The notes under the pieces are model-generated. The model searched no databases. It saw only the letters and a list, made by a program, of their open reading frames with translations, and had not been told where the DNA came from. The translations under genes were made by a program, and so were the position numbers. 64,000 bases of DNA from IMG/VR virus record IMGVR_UViG_3300037722_000409, positions 28,322 to 92,321 of that record. One strand, given 5' to 3'. The stretch comes from a virus. Shown here piece after piece: positions 26,802 to 55,260 of this stretch (positions within the stretch are counted from its first letter, which is position 1; each line of letters starts with the position of its first letter).

Positions 26802-29672
26802 ATGATAACGCGCCGCAAGGTCACCAACCTCATAAAGTCCTTCACCAACACCGGCGGAGGCTACGCGGAGCCCGGGAGCATCTTCGCTTCCCGGGACTCT
26901 TGCTGTCAGGAGGACTGCCACTGCACCACCAACTACGGCTGCCGGTGCGAGCATGACTGCTCGTGCCCGGACCGCTCGCTGGTAGAGGGTGAGCTCCACG
27001 AGCTGGTCCTGAGTAACGAGTTCCTCGCCAAGCTGCAGGGGTCAGCCGCCGCGGACTGGGAGCGCTACGACAGCGACACCCCACAAGCTGTAGCGGTTCC
27101 GGACAGAGAGCTATACCGCGTCGGTGAGCGCGCCGACTCACGAGACACCCTCATCGGCGACACGCCCCTCAACGATCGTGTCTATAAGGCTGATGGTCCA
27201 CCGCGCCCAGGATTGATACCACAGTCAGGTGACTGGAATAACCCAGACCGTTGGATTCGCCCTGAGGCCGAAGAAGCGGAAGAGCCTGACCTCGCTACCT
27301 GGATAAAGAACCTGCGTACCATGAGCGTCATCGACGTACGAGACACCGTCGGTGACCTCGCCAAGACCGAGGCCGAAGGTGGTAAGCCAGCGTACGTTAA
27401 GGCCATGCGGGACGTCGCGGTAAGCGAGTACCTGGTACGACGGAGTCAACAGTTTGACGAGTTGATCGCCGGCCAACCTGCCTACGAGCTAGACGAAGCT
27501 GAGCGTGTCACCAACGCGGGCATCGCCGCAGCTGAGCGTACCATTGCCAGTGCTAACACCCCCCGAGTTGTCGGTCTAGCCACACTCGACCGTATGGACG
27601 GAAAGAACCGGCTTGACGCCATCGCGGCTGTTCGTAGACGTCTAACTGCAGCAGAAGACGCGACAGTGGCCGCAGCTGTCAAAGCTCGCTTTACACCGCA
27701 GGTGTCTGACGCCCTCCGCCTTAACAAGATCTGGGAGGAGGAGCTCGGGTACTCACCGCGAGACGCTACTAGCGAGCAGCGTGGCGCGGTCAAGATGAAG
27801 CTCATAAAAGACGTCGCTGCTCGGCTTACCACGATGGCTAAGAGCAATCCCGAGTTGGCCGAGGCTCTCGCCAACCCTGCACACAACCTCATGCGTCCCT
27901 TTACTGAAGGTCAACCCACAGCGGACCGAGTGACCGACAAGCTCATCTCTGTCTGGATGGAGTCCTCTAGTGACAGCTACCCCCGCGCCATCGCCTTGCA
28001 GCTCGCGGCCCAAAAGGAGTTTTCAGAGCTCACTACGGGCTCTAGCACCGACCACTTTGAAGGTGACAAGAGCGCGTGGAGGGTGGCAGAGCGTGACCTG
28101 GCTGACAACGAGGTCTTATTCCGATCCTTTCACCGCGCACAGTACGACAACACCCAGGCGTGGCTAGGTAAGAACAACGTTAAGAGTGTCACCCTCTACA
28201 GGGGCTCTTTGCTGTCCGCGAGTAAGGTAAAGGAGATGATACCTGGAACCGCCAGCACGGCAATGGCGGACGTTCAGACTCAGCCGGTGTCAAGCTTCAG
28301 CTACGACCCTCAGGTCGCCTACGACTTCTCAACTGGCCACGTCGATGACAGCCTTGATCACACACCGACCGTGTCGGTATCGCAGGTACCCGCCAACCGC
28401 ATAATATCCACCGCGCTGACGGGGTACGGCTGTCTTACCGAGGGGGAGTTCACCGTGCTGGGAGGTGTAGACCACGGCCTCTTGGTCCAGTCAGACTCCT
28501 TTGGCACCGACGCTTTGGAGGGTCTGTTAAACACCATCGAGCAAGCTCAACACGCACAGGTTGACAAAGCTGGTCCTCCACGTCCGGGCCTCATCCCACA
28601 GAGCGGAGACTGGGAACACCCAGGACACTGGATCCGACCGCCAGAGGCAGGCGCCCCGGTAGAGCCAGAGGTGCCTGAAGAGTACGTGGGACGAGGACGC
28701 GCCGCGATCATAACCGACGCGCGCCGAGCAGGGTTTACACCTGACCCAGCGGAGGCGGTCGCCCTTGAGCGTGCCTGGCACAAGGACCTTGGCTATCGCC
28801 CGATGCACGCTAAGTGGGACGAGCAGGTGGATGTAAAGGTGTCAATAGCCGCCGCTGTATCCTCAGAGCTTAAGGCGCTCATGAGCACCGATCCAGCACT
28901 GACCTTAGCGGTTAACAACTACCACACCCCCACTGGTAAATCTTTAGATGTAGACAACACGGTGCGATACCTAGTAGGAGTCTGGGCTGACTCGTCTGGT
29001 GACCACCACGACATCGCCTTAGCGCTGCAACAGTCGGCTCTTCGAGAGTTTCCAGAACTGACCGACGGGGCAGCCACCGACCACTGGGACCTGGACCCAA
29101 CTCTAAGAGGAGTGGTGCGACGCGAGCTCGCCGAGTCTGGCGCCGTGTATCGTGCCTTTCACCGCGCTCAGTACAACAATACCCAACGGTGGTTCAAGAA
29201 GCACGGGATCACCCACGTCACGCTTTACCGTGGGATGGCCATTCCAAAGGAAACGGCAGAGACAGCCTTAAAAGGAGGCACCTCGGCCATCACTGACCTG
29301 GCCACCCAGCCGGTCTCAAGCTACTCGTACGAGCTAGAGACCGCGCTAGAGTTCGCCACCGACACGTCACGGTCCTCAGGCTTGACCCCCACGCTCAGCG
29401 TATCACGGTTCCCAGTCGAGCGCGTGCTGTCCACAGCCTTGACCGGCTTCGGGTGCTTGACAGAGGGTGAAGTCACAGTACTAGGGGGTATTGACAAGGG
29501 CCTGCTGGTGCAGACCGAAGACCCTGACAGGGGACACGGGGAGGACCCCGGCCTAGACCCTGAGCAGATCGAGAAGCTCATCACCAAGCTTGGGCCGCGT
29601 AAGTTCGAAAAGTCCGTAGCTCTTGATGGCTACCAGGTGCGTATAATACACAAGGAGAGGCGCGACCAGTGA
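26802..29672 (+). CDS. polyvalent protein: two tandem tagged modules, each ending in an R-S-E ADP-ribosyltransferase-like domain
   Basis: VTLYRG...SSFS/SSYS...GCLTEGE occurs twice. Two tags. Confidence 0.75.
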   Translation: MITRRKVTNLIKSFTNTGGGYAEPGSIFASRDSCCQEDCHCTTNYGCRCEHDCSCPDRSLVEGELHELVLSNEFLAKLQGSAAADWERYDSDTPQAVAVPDRELYRVGERADSRDTLIGDTPLNDRVYKADGPPRPGLIPQSGDWNNPDRWIRPEAEEAEEPDLATWIKNLRTMSVIDVRDTVGDLAKTEAEGGKPAYVKAMRDVAVSEYLVRRSQQFDELIAGQPAYELDEAERVTNAGIAAAERTIASANTPRVVGLATLDRMDGKNRLDAIAAVRRRLTAAEDATVAAAVKARFTPQVSDALRLNKIWEEELGYSPRDATSEQRGAVKMKLIKDVAARLTTMAKSNPELAEALANPAHNLMRPFTEGQPTADRVTDKLISVWMESSSDSYPRAIALQLAAQKEFSELTTGSSTDHFEGDKSAWRVAERDLADNEVLFRSFHRAQYDNTQAWLGKNNVKSVTLYRGSLLSASKVKEMIPGTASTAMADVQTQPVSSFSYDPQVAYDFSTGHVDDSLDHTPTVSVSQVPANRIISTALTGYGCLTEGEFTVLGGVDHGLLVQSDSFGTDALEGLLNTIEQAQHAQVDKAGPPRPGLIPQSGDWEHPGHWIRPPEAGAPVEPEVPEEYVGRGRAAIITDARRAGFTPDPAEAVALERAWHKDLGYRPMHAKWDEQVDVKVSIAAAVSSELKALMSTDPALTLAVNNYHTPTGKSLDVDNTVRYLVGVWADSSGDHHDIALALQQSALREFPELTDGAATDHWDLDPTLRGVVRRELAESGAVYRAFHRAQYNNTQRWFKKHGITHVTLYRGMAIPKETAETALKGGTSAITDLATQPVSSYSYELETALEFATDTSRSSGLTPTLSVSRFPVERVLSTALTGFGCLTEGEVTVLGGIDKGLLVQTEDPDRGHGEDPGLDPEQIEKLITKLGPRKFEKSVALDGYQVRIIHKERRDQ

Positions 29673-29857
29673 TAAACCTAGACGCAGACATCCACAACGC
29701 TGACTGGACCAAGAGGACCTGGGACCTACTGGACGTAGAGGACGAGGACGACCTCATGGAGCACCTGTCTGACACCGGCATGTCCTTGGAGCATTTCAAG
29801 ACCCTTCCGGTCTACAAGTTCAACGTCAATAAGATCCCGTGGCTTGCTGAGCTGTGA
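29669..29857 (+). CDS. small acidic protein between polyvalent genes
   Basis: GTGA overlaps at both ends suggest translational coupling. Confidence 0.65.
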   Translation: MINLDADIHNADWTKRTWDLLDVEDEDDLMEHLSDTGMSLEHFKTLPVYKFNVNKIPWLAEL

Positions 29858-53784: not shown

Positions 53785-53826
53785 TCTCAGTTAACCAGAC
53801 AAAATCAACGAGGTGATTTAACAATC

Positions 53827-55260
53827 ATGGGAGCAAACGATAGCCTATACAACAACGGGACGGGCATGGGGATCAACAAGTCCCTGGGCTTTAGCCCGCG
53901 CACCCTGGCTGACTGGTTGGCCGTTACCCCTGGCAGCCAGCGCACCGCCCAGTACGGATACTTTGGCCCCGGCTCTCTCCTGCGGAAGGACATCACGTCC
54001 GCCGGCGACGCCACCATCGGCACCGACTTCTTCACCAACACGTTTGGTGCTAAGGTCTGGGACGCCCTGAACAGCCAGACCCGGTTCTTCAACCTGGTTC
54101 GGAAGGTTGCATGGGGTCCCACAACTGGTTGGAGGATCCGGTCCGGCCGGAACGCGTCCACCCAGGGCATCAGCGAGACCGCTGCCCTGCCGACCATCGA
54201 CACCCCGGACCTGCAGAGCGTGTCTGCACAGCCCGCCTTCATCGTGACCTCACTGGGCGTGAGCGCCCTGGCCCAGTTCCTCGGCAGCCTGGAAGGCGGC
54301 ATCGGTGATGCCCTCTCAGTAGCCCAGGAGACAGCCGAGGTCGACCACCTGAAAAAGCTCAACCAGATGCTTCTGGCCCCCTCCAGCATGCGCGTGGCTA
54401 CCGGCGGCGGTTCCACCGACACCGTGGTCACCGGCGGCGGAGAGTACCTCTTCGTGGGCGACACCTTCCACGTGTCTGGCGATGAGGGCTCGGGCAAGTA
54501 CATCACCATCACGGCCATCTCCGGCGACGTCATCACCTATACCGAGACCGGTGGCGTGACCTCTCCTGCGACTGACGACGTCATCTACACACGGACCCGC
54601 GGTGGGCTGTGGAGCTTGGACGACGTAGTCACCGAGGACGGCTTGACCATCAACGGTGTGGCTCTGGTAGACGGCGCCCTGTACGGGTCCTTGACTCACA
54701 GCGACCGGGTCGCTGGCACCTGGAACGCGGCCGGGCAGATCAACGACAACGCCGGCACCCTGCGGCACCTGTCGACCAGCCACATAGACAACGTGATCCA
54801 GAAGATCCGCCAGAACGGCTTCCAGCCCGACCTGTTGCTGACCGGTGTCGAACAGGAAGTACGGCTGGGCACCATCCTGCAAGCCAACCAGCACTTCATC
54901 AGCGAAGGTAAGTTCCAGGTGAAGATGGGCGGCGAGGCCACCCTGCCTGGCTACGAGACCGGCTTTGAGGTCGCGACCTACAAGAAGATCGCCCTCTTCA
55001 CCGACACCGACACCGCCCCGGTGTGGCAGCTGGCCGCCAACGGCGACGCTGTCCGCGGTACCAACGTCTACGTGCTGGACACTCGGTTCCTGGAAGTCCC
55101 GGTCCTGTTCACCACCCAGTACATGGAGAGCAGAGACTACATCCACAACAACATGTTGGGGATCAAGGCGATCTTCCTGACCGCCGCCAACCTCCGGTGC
55201 TTGAACTTCCGAGCACAGGGTAAGGTCACCGACCTGAGCGACAACACCAACCTGACCTAA
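53827..55260 (+). CDS. major capsid protein (HK97 fold)
   Basis: Position, strong codon bias, FGAKVWDALN..W..TGWR and QPDLLLTG..FEVATYK motifs. Confidence 0.9.
   Translation: MGANDSLYNNGTGMGINKSLGFSPRTLADWLAVTPGSQRTAQYGYFGPGSLLRKDITSAGDATIGTDFFTNTFGAKVWDALNSQTRFFNLVRKVAWGPTTGWRIRSGRNASTQGISETAALPTIDTPDLQSVSAQPAFIVTSLGVSALAQFLGSLEGGIGDALSVAQETAEVDHLKKLNQMLLAPSSMRVATGGGSTDTVVTGGGEYLFVGDTFHVSGDEGSGKYITITAISGDVITYTETGGVTSPATDDVIYTRTRGGLWSLDDVVTEDGLTINGVALVDGALYGSLTHSDRVAGTWNAAGQINDNAGTLRHLSTSHIDNVIQKIRQNGFQPDLLLTGVEQEVRLGTILQANQHFISEGKFQVKMGGEATLPGYETGFEVATYKKIALFTDTDTAPVWQLAANGDAVRGTNVYVLDTRFLEVPVLFTTQYMESRDYIHNNMLGIKAIFLTAANLRCLNFRAQGKVTDLSDNTNLT

What the first reader, a model, noticed from the sequence alone, without database searches (positions are those of the whole stretch)
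26802..53990. Recurrent [ILV]-x-K|(A/S) sites suggest a Lys-specific maturation code shared by cargo, scaffold and capsid
SEEN: tags are preceded by VYKA, VDKA, IRKL, VSKL, LDKA, LRKS, IEKA (three times), IHRA, LNKA, VHKA and IKKA. The same pattern marks untagged boundaries: FEKS, LSKS, LTKA (twice), ISKA, ILKA, LAKA before the Nudix, INKS after it, INKA, LNKA before the MTase, LKKA before the protease and INKS after it. It also occurs in the scaffold (LAKA, LVKA, VSKA, IAKA), the MCP N-terminus (INKS, LRKD) and near the MuF start (VNKA). KNOWN: the HK97 protease cleaves its capsid protein after Lys. INFERENCE: one protease dissects all head proteins at this motif.
Basis: partly seen in the sequence, partly recalled or inferred. 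Interest (0 to 1): 0.75.

Follow-up and report, generated by a model that had tools for sequence, protein, structure and literature searches.

The report
Lysine cut-site code of phage head protease
An uncultured 92-kb phage marks its scaffold, capsid protein, head protease and multi-enzyme cargo proteins with one short motif (hydrophobic, any residue, lysine, then Ala/Ser) that is most likely where its head-maturation protease cuts; relatives of the protease carry the same signature, but no cut has been measured.

Summary
[ILV]xK[AS] occurs 39 times in the seven head/cargo ORFs against 12.5 expected, and 6 against 6 in the early genes. Only Lys at P1, Ala/Ser at P1' and Ile/Leu at P3 are enriched.

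The signal replicates independently:
- In 149 diverse proteins carrying a homologous protease domain the count is 650 against 191 (Arg, Glu and Gln controls about 1x; shifted registers at most 1.65x).
- The protease domain is flanked by the motif on both sides in most homologues.
- Six scaffold orthologues hold 18 sites against 2.4 expected.
- The capsid protein keeps an invariant Lys before its conserved N-arm (INK|SLG here, FNK103|SLG in HK97).
- A methyltransferase cassette present in only some relatives is bounded exactly by two xK|A sites.

The protease is a divergent S78/assemblin-fold enzyme.

Limits:
- Untagged sites in ORFs A-D are at chance level (9 against 7.5).
- Ten of 13 tag-adjacent sites sit at a fixed two-residue spacing, so they may also be part of the tag.
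- Cleavage itself is untested.

Motif-coded head processing is known (T4 LxE, phiKZ AxE, HK97 Lys103). I call this a new variant of that kind. Earlier notes of this scan describe the same lysine motif in at least 13 other genomes.

The parts
26802..29672 (+). Cargo polyprotein A (956 aa), two tagged paralogous halves
   Evidence: tags at aa 133 and 592
29854..33453 (+). Cargo polyprotein B (1199 aa), four tags, ART-like domains
33460..38208 (+). Cargo polyprotein C (1582 aa), two tags, SNF2-type helicase at the C-end
44332..46773 (+). Cargo polyprotein D (813 aa), three tags, HExxH zincin-like and GNAT-like parts
47279..52852 (+). Polyprotein E (1857 aa): tags, topoisomerase IB, Nudix, methyltransferase-like cassette, prohead protease, conserved tail
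   Evidence: (Pfam)
51941..52474 (+). Prohead protease domain (E aa 1555-1732). His at 52148-52150, Ser at 52331-52333, invariant Glu at 52415-52417
   Evidence: PF04586 26.2 bits; phrog_23555 8e-15; assemblin/T4 gp21 fold; conserved H/S/E
52999..53784 (+). Scaffold protein (261 aa) with five motif sites
53827..55260 (+). Major capsid protein (477 aa)
27180..27191 (+). VYK|A, 3 residues before tag A133
28560..28571 (+). VDK|A before tag A592
29863..29874 (+). IRK|L in the N-terminal MRIIRK of B, before tag B9
30553..30564 (+). VSK|L before tag B239
31672..31683 (+). LDK|A before tag B612
32230..32241 (+). LRK|S before tag B800, at the end of the ART module
33691..33702 (+). IEK|A before tag C83
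34264..34275 (+). IEK|A before tag C274, at the end of the paralogous ART module
44341..44352 (+). IHR|A in the N-terminal MRVIHR of D, before tag D9 (Arg at P1)
45130..45141 (+). LNK|A before tag D272
45910..45921 (+). IEK|A before tag D532
47288..47299 (+). VHK|A in the N-terminal MRIVHK of E, before tag E13
48494..48505 (+). IKK|A before tag E411
48077..48088 (+). LSK|S, untagged, in the N-terminal part of E
49799..49810 (+). ISK|A after the topoisomerase IB domain
49853..49864 (+). ILK|A
50159..50170 (+). LAK|A, 5 residues before the Nudix match
50522..50533 (+). INK|S, 12 residues after the Nudix match
50756..50767 (+). INK|A
51353..51364 (+). LNK|A, upstream border of the methyltransferase cassette (end of the conserved GDGG segment)
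   Evidence: relatives without the cassette join here
51506..51763 (+). Three sites inside the methyltransferase-like cassette (LKKA, LVKA, LLKA), between its bounding sites; possibly buried, status open
51932..51943 (+). LKK|A, downstream border of the cassette and N-flank of the protease. K and A are invariant in six relatives
   Evidence: lies in the disordered lead-in of the model
51974..52003 (+). VINK|D and TAK|A in the disordered lead-in of the protease. The Lys of VINK is invariant in six relatives
52466..52477 (+). INK|S directly after the last strand of the protease fold
   Evidence: K invariant
52520..52531 (+). LIRK in the conserved post-protease tail Y.G[IL]..I[KR][KR]. It resembles the MR[IV][IV][RH]K starts of B, D and E
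52706..52768 (+). LVK|S and LFK|S in the conserved C-terminal tail of E
53089..53175 (+). Scaffold sites LAK|A, LVK|A, VSK|A, VRK|S
53620..53631 (+). Scaffold IAK|A. The position is conserved in six orthologues ([VI][IV][AV]K[AGE])
53872..53883 (+). MCP INK|S. The Lys is invariant in six MCP orthologues, three residues before the conserved GF.P.TL.DW
   Evidence: HK97 FNK103|SLG
4539..4550 (+). VNK|A near the start of the MuF-like ORF (start codon uncertain)
2984..2995 (+). LVK|A at aa 53-56 of the portal protein; a single site, may be chance

Best explanation
[I/L/V]-x-K followed by Ala/Ser is the recognition site of the phage's own prohead protease. This is a divergent HK97-type (S78, assemblin-fold) serine protease encoded as E residues 1555-1732.

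Proposed sequence of events (inferred):
1. Polyprotein E, cargo proteins A-D, the scaffold and the MCP co-assemble into the procapsid.
2. The protease frees itself at LKK|A and INK|S.
3. It trims about 18 residues from the MCP at INK|S.
4. It chops the scaffold at several sites so that it can leave.
5. It cuts the polyproteins after the Lys that precedes each PPRPGL tag and at the untagged borders in E.
6. Each released module starts with Ala/Ser and, where a tag follows, keeps that tag at its new N-terminus.

Shown here: the motif's statistics, positions, conservation and family-wide recurrence, and the fold and family of the protease. Inferred: that cleavage happens, when it happens, and which individual sites are used.
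For: 1. Enrichment in the window: 39 against 12.5 in head/cargo ORFs and 6 against 6 in early genes. Only K is enriched at P1, A/S at P1' and I/L at P3.

2. Independent replication in 149 representatives (clustered at 50% identity) that carry a homologous protease domain:
- 650 sites against 190.9 expected (3.4x). P1 controls: R 1.33, E 0.85, Q 0.95, D 1.14.
- Outside the protease, 422 against 127. Shifted or reversed registers give 1.15-1.65x.
- An unbiased look at every Lys recovers L/I at -2 and A at +1. Arg and Glu show no such context.
- 110 of 130 proteins exceed expectation, median 2.75x; R and E controls have medians of 0.7-0.8.

3. The protease domain carries the site on both flanks in most homologues. 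In the pLDDT 87.7 model the N-flank sites lie in the disordered lead-in, and K178|S follows the last strand directly.

4. Six scaffold orthologues hold 18 sites against 2.4 expected (P 9e-11), mostly at non-homologous positions. The related contig G002 scaffold has 6 against 0.5.

5. The MCP Lys is invariant in six orthologues just before the conserved N-arm. The MCP bodies have 0 sites against about 2.2 expected.

6. HK97: the 103-residue scaffold domain (PMC10275583) ends in FNK|SLG, and this MCP has INK|SLG. The HK97 scaffold domain has 3 strict sites plus FNKS against 0.36 expected; the mature part has 0.

7. The methyltransferase cassette in E is an indel bounded by TLNK|A and KLKK|A. Relatives without it join '...xK|A' directly to the protease lead-in.

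8. Tag copies are saturated at synonymous sites (third-position identity 0.34), so the prefix is kept by selection and is not left over from recent duplication.

9. The protease is PF04586 at 26.2 bits (cut-off 21), 23 of 26 clade members match, and the fold matches herpes assemblin and T4 gp21. From established knowledge, assemblin cuts (V/L)-x-A|S and T4 gp21 cuts (L/I)-x-E|, the same P3-hydrophobic, P1-determinant grammar.
Against: - No proteomic or biochemical datum exists for this uncultured phage.
- Untagged sites in A-D are at chance level (9 against 7.5).
- Ten of 13 tag prefixes sit exactly two residues before PPRPGL, and three ORFs begin MR[IV][IV][RH][KR], where a cut would remove only six residues. 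The prefix could therefore serve binding instead of, or as well as, cleavage.
- Part of the last-strand conservation at the protease C-flank may be structural.
- Scaffold enrichment could be inflated by helical periodicity, although the Lys and register controls argue against this.
- Specificity within the wider family is not uniform: the phage P1 MCP is cut after Glu120 (PMC9024508).
- The single-sequence fold of E 800-1857 failed (pLDDT 34), so most domain borders rest on Pfam envelopes and on one indel.
Confidence: 0.68

Rival explanations
1. The hydrophobic-x-Lys-Ala stretch before the tags is simply the N-terminal part of the repeated tag, a binding epitope used for docking to the scaffold, capsid interior or portal. 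It is not cut. Only the sites around the protease, scaffold and MCP are real cleavage sites.
For: - The spacer is fixed at two residues in 10 of 13 copies.
- The prefix is present at the very N-terminus of B, D and E, and of the G001 polyprotein (MKVIHK), where there is nothing to separate.
- Untagged sites in A-D are at chance level.
Against: - The spacer varies (2, 3, 4, 6 here; 1 to 8 or more in homologues), while P3, P1 and P1' stay fixed.
- The same tetrapeptide occurs without any tag at the protease flanks, the cassette borders, the scaffold and the MCP.
- The G001 polyprotein starts MKVIHKQ with no tag behind it.
- Enrichment is family-wide in proteins that have no tags (only 7 of the 149 homologues carry tags).
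Confidence: 0.15
2. A different peptidase does the cutting. One candidate is the zincin-like HExxH domain in ORF D, the class that Iyer et al. propose for autoprocessing of polyvalent proteins. Another is a host trypsin-like enzyme. On this reading the S78 protease only matures the capsid.
For: - D carries VVHEIGHH, with a weak lethal-factor-type zincin match (E 0.0056).
- PMC5512222 names the zincin-like metallopeptidase as the commonest domain of polyvalent proteins and as their likely processing enzyme.
Against: - The motif was recovered from proteins selected only for carrying the S78-type domain, and it flanks that domain itself.
- The same motif marks the MCP and the scaffold, the classic S78 substrates, and matches the HK97 site.
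- G001 and G002 show the motif without a detected zincin partner, although this was not searched exhaustively.
Confidence: 0.1
3. There is no specific function. The excess reflects Lys/Ala/Leu-rich helical linkers and coiled coils in head proteins, plus repeated counting of paralogous tags.
For: - Scaffolds are helical and rich in K and A.
- Ten sites belong to one repeat family.
- A-D untagged sites are at chance level.
Against: - Within-protein shuffles keep composition, and 0 of 2000 reach the observed count.
- Arg, Glu and Gln in the same frame are not enriched, and shifted or reversed registers give at most 1.65x.
- Untagged sites alone give 29 against 12.4, P 4e-5.
- The Lys is invariant at the MCP and at both protease flanks.
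Confidence: 0.05

Closest known systems
HK97 gp4 prohead protease (MEROPS S78) and maturation of gp5 at Lys103|Ser104
   Same: Same Pfam family and assemblin fold, with the gene placed next to the scaffold and capsid functions. The HK97 site FNK|SLG matches INK|SLG in this MCP. The HK97 scaffold domain is also rich in the motif (IQKA, LTKS, LIKS), while the mature part has none (PMC10275583).
   Different: - Here the protease is the C-terminal part of an 1857-aa multi-enzyme protein.
- The scaffold is a separate gene.
- Only about 18 residues would be removed from the MCP.
- The motif also marks cargo proteins.
- Pairwise similarity to gp4 is not detectable by BLASTP, and the TIGR01543 score is below its cut-off.
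T4 gp21 (L/I-x-E) and phiKZ gp175 / SPN3US gp245 (A-x-E): one protease, one motif, many head and ejected proteins
   Same: A short P3-x-P1 motif is shared by the scaffold/core, the MCP, the protease itself (self-cleavage) and the packaged proteins. SPN3US has 14 mapped sites in nine proteins (PMC10052503). The fold is the same (T4 gp21 5jbl among the fold matches).
   Different: - P1 is Lys, not Glu.
- The protease belongs to the S78 family, not the T4 type.
- The predicted cuts lie upstream of the tags, so the tag stays on the product. T4 capsid-targeting peptides are removed.
- The substrates are long polyproteins cut internally many times.
Polyvalent proteins with a C-terminal assemblin-like peptidase (Iyer et al. 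2017, PMC5512222)
   Same: ORF E has that architecture: ART, topoisomerase, Nudix, methyltransferase and helicase domains in MuF-associated head-gene context, ending in the peptidase. The paper already predicts that the peptidase processes the protein.
   Different: - No cleavage motif was proposed there.
- The paper states that the peptidase is always C-terminal. Many homologues found here have it at the N-terminus, followed by Nudix, LigT and DUF5661 domains.
Herpesvirus assemblin, (V/L)-x-A|S maturation and release sites
   Same: Best structural matches of the protease model (E 8e-6). The site grammar is the same, with a hydrophobic P3 and a small P1' (established knowledge).
   Different: - P1 is Ala in herpesviruses and Lys here.
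- The catalytic set and the dimerisation were not tested.

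Membership tests
Peptidase S78 (HK97-type prohead protease) | Match to PF04586 above the gathering score | tested here: met
   26.2 bits against a cut-off of 21 for the domain alone. 23 of 26 clade members match, best E 6e-13. In the whole ORF the score is 21.3.
Peptidase S78 (HK97-type prohead protease) | Assemblin/gp21-like fold | tested here: met
   AF2 model with pLDDT 87.7. Foldseek finds herpes proteases at E 8e-6 and T4 gp21 5jbl at TM 0.53-0.57.
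Peptidase S78 (HK97-type prohead protease) | Conserved catalytic His and Ser | tested here: met
   Positions count from the first residue of the protease domain. H70 is nearly invariant; S131 and E159 are invariant in 26 sequences. Equivalence to the HK97 catalytic His and Ser is inferred from motif likeness, not from a significant pairwise alignment.
Peptidase S78 (HK97-type prohead protease) | NCBIfam equivalog TIGR01543 cut-off | tested here: not met
   31.7 bits against a cut-off of 59. It is a divergent clade, not an HK97 equivalog.
Peptidase S78 (HK97-type prohead protease) | Proteolytic activity on capsid and scaffold proteins | not testable with these tools
   Uncultured phage; no proteome is available.
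Motif-coded head maturation (T4 / phiKZ / SPN3US type) | Motif enriched in head and packaged proteins but not in other genes | tested here: met
   39 against 12.5 in head/cargo ORFs and 6 against 6 in early genes. Within the two related contigs G001 and G002 the excess is again concentrated in head and cargo proteins.
Motif-coded head maturation (T4 / phiKZ / SPN3US type) | Protease carries its own sites (self-processing) | tested here: met
   Sites lie on both flanks here and in most homologues. This is sequence evidence only.
Motif-coded head maturation (T4 / phiKZ / SPN3US type) | Mature N-termini map to the motif | not testable with these tools
   Needs N-terminomics.
T4-type capsid targeting sequence | N-terminal targeting peptide removed by a cut at its C-terminal end | tested here: not met
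   The motif lies 2-6 residues upstream of each tag, and no recurrent site follows the tag. The tag would stay on the product.
Polyvalent proteins (Iyer et al. 2017) | Many unrelated enzymatic domains in one polypeptide, in phage head-gene context, with an embedded peptidase | tested here: met
   Pfam finds ART-PolyVal, SNF2, Topoisom_I, NUDIX, N6_N4_Mtase and Peptidase_S78. A MuF-like ORF lies at 4431-5360.

The most novel reading that the evidence does not exclude
A large, mostly uncultured clade of S78 prohead proteases uses one predictable address, [I/L/V/M]-x-K|[A/S/G]. The same code governs scaffold removal, capsid trimming, self-release and the dicing of exchangeable cargo cassettes. 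New enzyme modules can then be inserted at any existing site simply by duplicating it, as the methyltransferase cassette shows. Each product would keep an N-terminal PPRPGL tag for a later step such as retention or ejection. If so, cargo sets of uncultured phages could be predicted from sequence, and the site-plus-tag pair could be used to load and release proteins in capsids.
Probability: 0.55. Interest if true: 0.6.

Novelty: new variant of a known kind. Interest (0 to 1): 0.5.

Why it matters
If the motif is the cut site, the mature virion proteome of this phage and of hundreds of related uncultured phages can be read from sequence: which enzymes are released as separate proteins, and with which N-termini. 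It would also give the first consensus specificity for a large branch of the HK97-type proteases, for which I know of only single mapped sites. It would explain how cargo cassettes are swapped without disturbing processing. The idea itself, one head protease and one motif, is textbook for T4 and phiKZ, and the protease fusion was described in 2017. The advance is therefore one of degree and of predictive use, not of principle.

Tried and rejected
- Single-sequence AlphaFold of E 800-1857, meant to define domain borders, failed (pLDDT 34). Borders rest on Pfam envelopes and one indel instead.
- tblastn of the MCP against 50,697 named phages found nothing. The protease finds only ~31%-identical proteases in Vibrio, Streptomyces and haloarchaeal viruses, so no cultured close relative with a proteome was found.
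- BLASTP of the protease against HK97 gp4, and phmmer against PDB sequences, gave nothing significant. Family membership rests on profiles and on the fold.
- A looser pattern for the 'R-I-I-H-K' prefix was too unspecific to count.
- ORF D has no relative in G001 or G002.
- Papers that might list HK97 or A511 cleavage details (PMC3709472, PMC3075369, PMC2519532) are not held. The T5 pb11/pb8 search found nothing. The A511 'Lys23' lead from an earlier scan note stays unchecked.
- Complex prediction was not used: an enzyme with a short substrate is outside what that test can judge.
- Recent duplication as the source of the tag prefixes was rejected (third-codon identity 0.34).
- Nudix borders are not marked in two N-terminal-protease homologues, so 'every domain border' was rejected.

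Full report
**What the window is.** The window is bases 28322-92321 of a complete 92,321-bp uncultured phage. Terminase (354-1871), portal (2828-4537) and a MuF-like ORF (4431-5360) lie at the left. The finding covers:
- four cargo polyproteins: A 26802-29672, B 29854-33453, C 33460-38208 and D 44332-46773;
- the 1857-aa polyprotein E (47279-52852), which holds topoisomerase IB, Nudix, a methyltransferase-like part and, near its end, a Peptidase_S78 match;
- a separate scaffold (52999-53784) and the major capsid protein (53827-55260).

Fourteen copies of a PP[RK]PGL...RW.RP tag occur in A-E.

**The observation.** Thirteen of the 14 tags are preceded by [ILV]-x-[KR]-[ASL].

[ILV]xK[AS] occurs 39 times in the seven head/cargo ORFs. 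Within-protein shuffles give 12.5 +/- 3.3, and none of 2000 reaches 39.

Scanning each position in turn:
- At P1, Lys is the one residue that stands out (3.1x; next Q 2.1x, E 1.5x).
- At P1', Ala is 3.7x and Ser 2.3x.
- At P3, Ile is 4.4x and Leu 4.3x, but Val only 1.3x.

The excess is unevenly spread:
- Ten strict sites are tag-adjacent.
- E has 14 untagged sites against 3.9 expected (P 6e-5).
- The scaffold has 5 against 0.6.
- A-D have 9 untagged sites against 7.5, which is chance.

So FEKS, LSKS in B and the two LTKA sites carry no weight. LRKD in the MCP lies in an invariant core stretch with Asp at P1' and does not fit.

**Independent replication.** An exhaustive profile search with the protease part of E returned 735 relatives. 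I analysed the best 150 representatives, which come from clusters at 50% identity.

- Across the 149 sequences other than the window's own, the motif occurs 650 times against 190.9 expected. The same frame with Arg, Glu, Gln, Asp, Asn or Thr at P1 gives 0.85-1.33x.
- Outside the protease domain the count is 422 against 127. Shifted or reversed registers give only 1.15-1.65x.
- Looking at every Lys without presupposing a motif recovers Leu/Ile at -2 and Ala at +1. Arg and Glu show nothing comparable.
- After removing the protease and its two flanking sites, 110 of 130 proteins still exceed expectation (median 2.75x). The Arg and Glu controls have medians of 0.7-0.8.

Two related contigs give the same picture:
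- In G001 (90.9 kb, MCP 73% identical) the most enriched protein is a tagged 706-aa protein, with 6 sites against 1.2.
- In G002 the scaffold has 6 against 0.5.

Over six scaffold orthologues there are 18 sites against 2.4, mostly at non-homologous places. The bodies of the six MCPs have none against about 2.2 expected.

**Position.** The protease domain is bracketed by the motif.
- Downstream, CEEGVNQDAK-[LF]-x-[VI]-[IVL]-x-K-[SA] recurs in about 30 close and mid-distance homologues. At the equivalent alignment column, 49 homologues carry a strict site.
- Upstream, a hydrophobic-x-K-[SA] lies a few residues before the first strand in most family members, whether the protease is at the N- or the C-terminus.
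- In an alignment-based model (pLDDT 87.7), residues 1-17 of the domain, which hold VINK|D, are disordered, and LKK|A sits at the junction just upstream. The last strand is residues 173-177, followed directly by K178|S.
- In six close relatives the Lys and Ala of LKK|A, the Lys of VINK and the Lys of INK|S are invariant.

The MCP keeps an invariant Lys three residues before the conserved GF.P.TL.DW. The six sequences read INK|S, TSK|S, MNK|A, IQK|G, INK|A and GTK|A.

The clearest border evidence is an indel. In the window and in P0002, a conserved Gly-rich segment ends in TLNK|A (P0002: TLSK|A). A methyltransferase cassette of about 190 residues follows and ends in KLKK|A (P0002: KLQK|A). In L002, L003 and P0008, which lack the cassette, the same segment ends in RIVK|A, KLKK|A or KVMK|A and runs straight into the protease lead-in. 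The cassette therefore sits between two copies of the site.

The site is not at every domain border. Two homologues with N-terminal proteases have no site around their Nudix domain.

**The enzyme.**
- The domain alone scores 26.2 bits on PF04586 (cut-off 21), and 23 of 26 clade members match.
- PHROGs call it a head maturation protease (8e-15).
- TIGR01543 scores 31.7, below its cut-off of 59.
- BLASTP against HK97 gp4 finds nothing.
- The model matches herpesvirus assemblins (E 8e-6) and T4 gp21.
- A His, a Ser and a Glu are conserved.

It is a divergent S78 member.

The HK97 record shows that the 103-residue scaffold domain of gp5 (PMC10275583) ends in FNK|SLG. That domain holds three more strict sites against 0.36 expected, and the mature part holds none. 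From established knowledge, assemblin cuts (V/L)-x-A|S and T4 gp21 cuts (L/I)-x-E, the same grammar with another P1. P1 is not uniform in the wider group: phage P1 cuts its MCP after Glu120 (PMC9024508).

**Is the prefix of the tags a cut site or part of the tag?**

Points for 'part of the tag':
- The spacer is two residues in 10 of 13 copies.
- B, D and E begin MR[IV][IV][RH][KR], where a cut would free only six residues.

Points for a separate element:
- The spacer also takes values of 3, 4 and 6 here, and 1 to 8 or more in homologues.
- The G001 polyprotein begins MKVIHKQ with no tag behind it.
- The same tetrapeptide works as a border without any tag in E.
- Only 7 of the 149 homologues carry tags at all.

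The tag copies are saturated at synonymous positions (third-position identity 0.34 where the residue is the same), so the prefix is held by selection, not by recent copying. I put 0.68 on cleavage at most conserved sites, tag prefixes included, and 0.15 on the prefixes being uncut binding residues.

**Comparison with what is known.**
- One protease cutting the scaffold, the capsid protein, itself and packaged proteins at one short motif is established for T4, phiKZ and SPN3US (PMC10052503).
- Iyer et al. (PMC5512222) described polyvalent proteins with a C-terminal assemblin-like peptidase and predicted that it processes them.

What is added here:
- the motif itself and its Lys specificity;
- its recurrence across a large S78 clade;
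- the cassette-at-a-site architecture;
- the fact that predicted cuts lie upstream of the tags, so the tags stay on the products. This fails the defining feature of a T4-type removable targeting peptide.

Notes from this scan report the same lysine motif in at least 13 other genomes. I reached the reading before seeing them. Their A511 'Lys23' lead could not be checked.

Noticed in passing
L002:1416-5141 (G001 polyprotein), insertion after the catalytic His of the protease: The orthologous protease in the 90.9-kb relative is interrupted directly after the conserved NVNIMH by an insert of about 350 residues. The insert starts with Cys, contains an HNH-like CxxC...H motif and ends in HN|T. This looks like an intein with a homing endonuclease inside the head protease. 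One other homologue in alignment A1 matches Intein_splicing.
   Followed up: partly
P0024-P0058 and others: Many homologues carry the protease at the N-terminus, followed by Nudix, DUF5661 and 2'-5' RNA ligase (LigT) domains. [quoted passage not shown]
   Followed up: partly
window 52478-52852 (E aa 1733-1857): The stretch after the protease has two conserved pieces. One is Y.G[IL]P[LM]I[KR][KR], which resembles the MR[IV][IV][RH]K starts of B, D and E. The other is a C-terminal ...LL.YF..F..LF....TGGL.[IV]VL[FY]D...GEV[LV]LPD, shared with L003, P0002 and P0004. It may be the procapsid-targeting tail of the protease, as in HK97 gp4 (recalled from Duda et al. 2013, which I could not read here).
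   Followed up: no
window 29604-29857: ORF A ends ...FEKSVALDGYQVRIIHKERRDQ*, a tag prefix with no tag behind it. A 62-aa ORF (29669-29857) overlaps the ends of A and B, and B then starts MRIIRKLAPPRPGL. This may be the scar of a former A-B fusion or a coupled restart.
   Followed up: no
window 44332-46773 (ORF D, about aa 150-203): D contains VVHEIGHHVEH (HExxH) with a weak match to the lethal-factor-type zincin family (E 0.0056). It is a second possible peptidase in the cargo set, and I treat it as a rival processing enzyme.
   Followed up: partly
window 354-5360 versus 51941-55260: Terminase, portal and MuF lie about 47 kb away from protease, scaffold and MCP on the linear map. The head module is split by the early genes and the cargo genes.
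   Followed up: no
window 48869 (E aa 531) and P0002 residue 2: The tag in front of the topoisomerase IB domain (PPKPGLEWDAKSYRWTRP) is the only one without the Lys prefix. In P0002 the same tag starts at residue 2 of the predicted protein. This short tag type (PGL.W....RW.RP) is also the only type present in the relative G001.
   Followed up: partly
alignment columns at protease positions 51 and 91: Thirty-four and 40 homologues carry a strict [ILV]xK[AS] at two positions inside the protease fold (in the window: EALAK|D and a non-matching KVFT|T). These could be self-inactivation sites or merely structural conservation.
   Followed up: no
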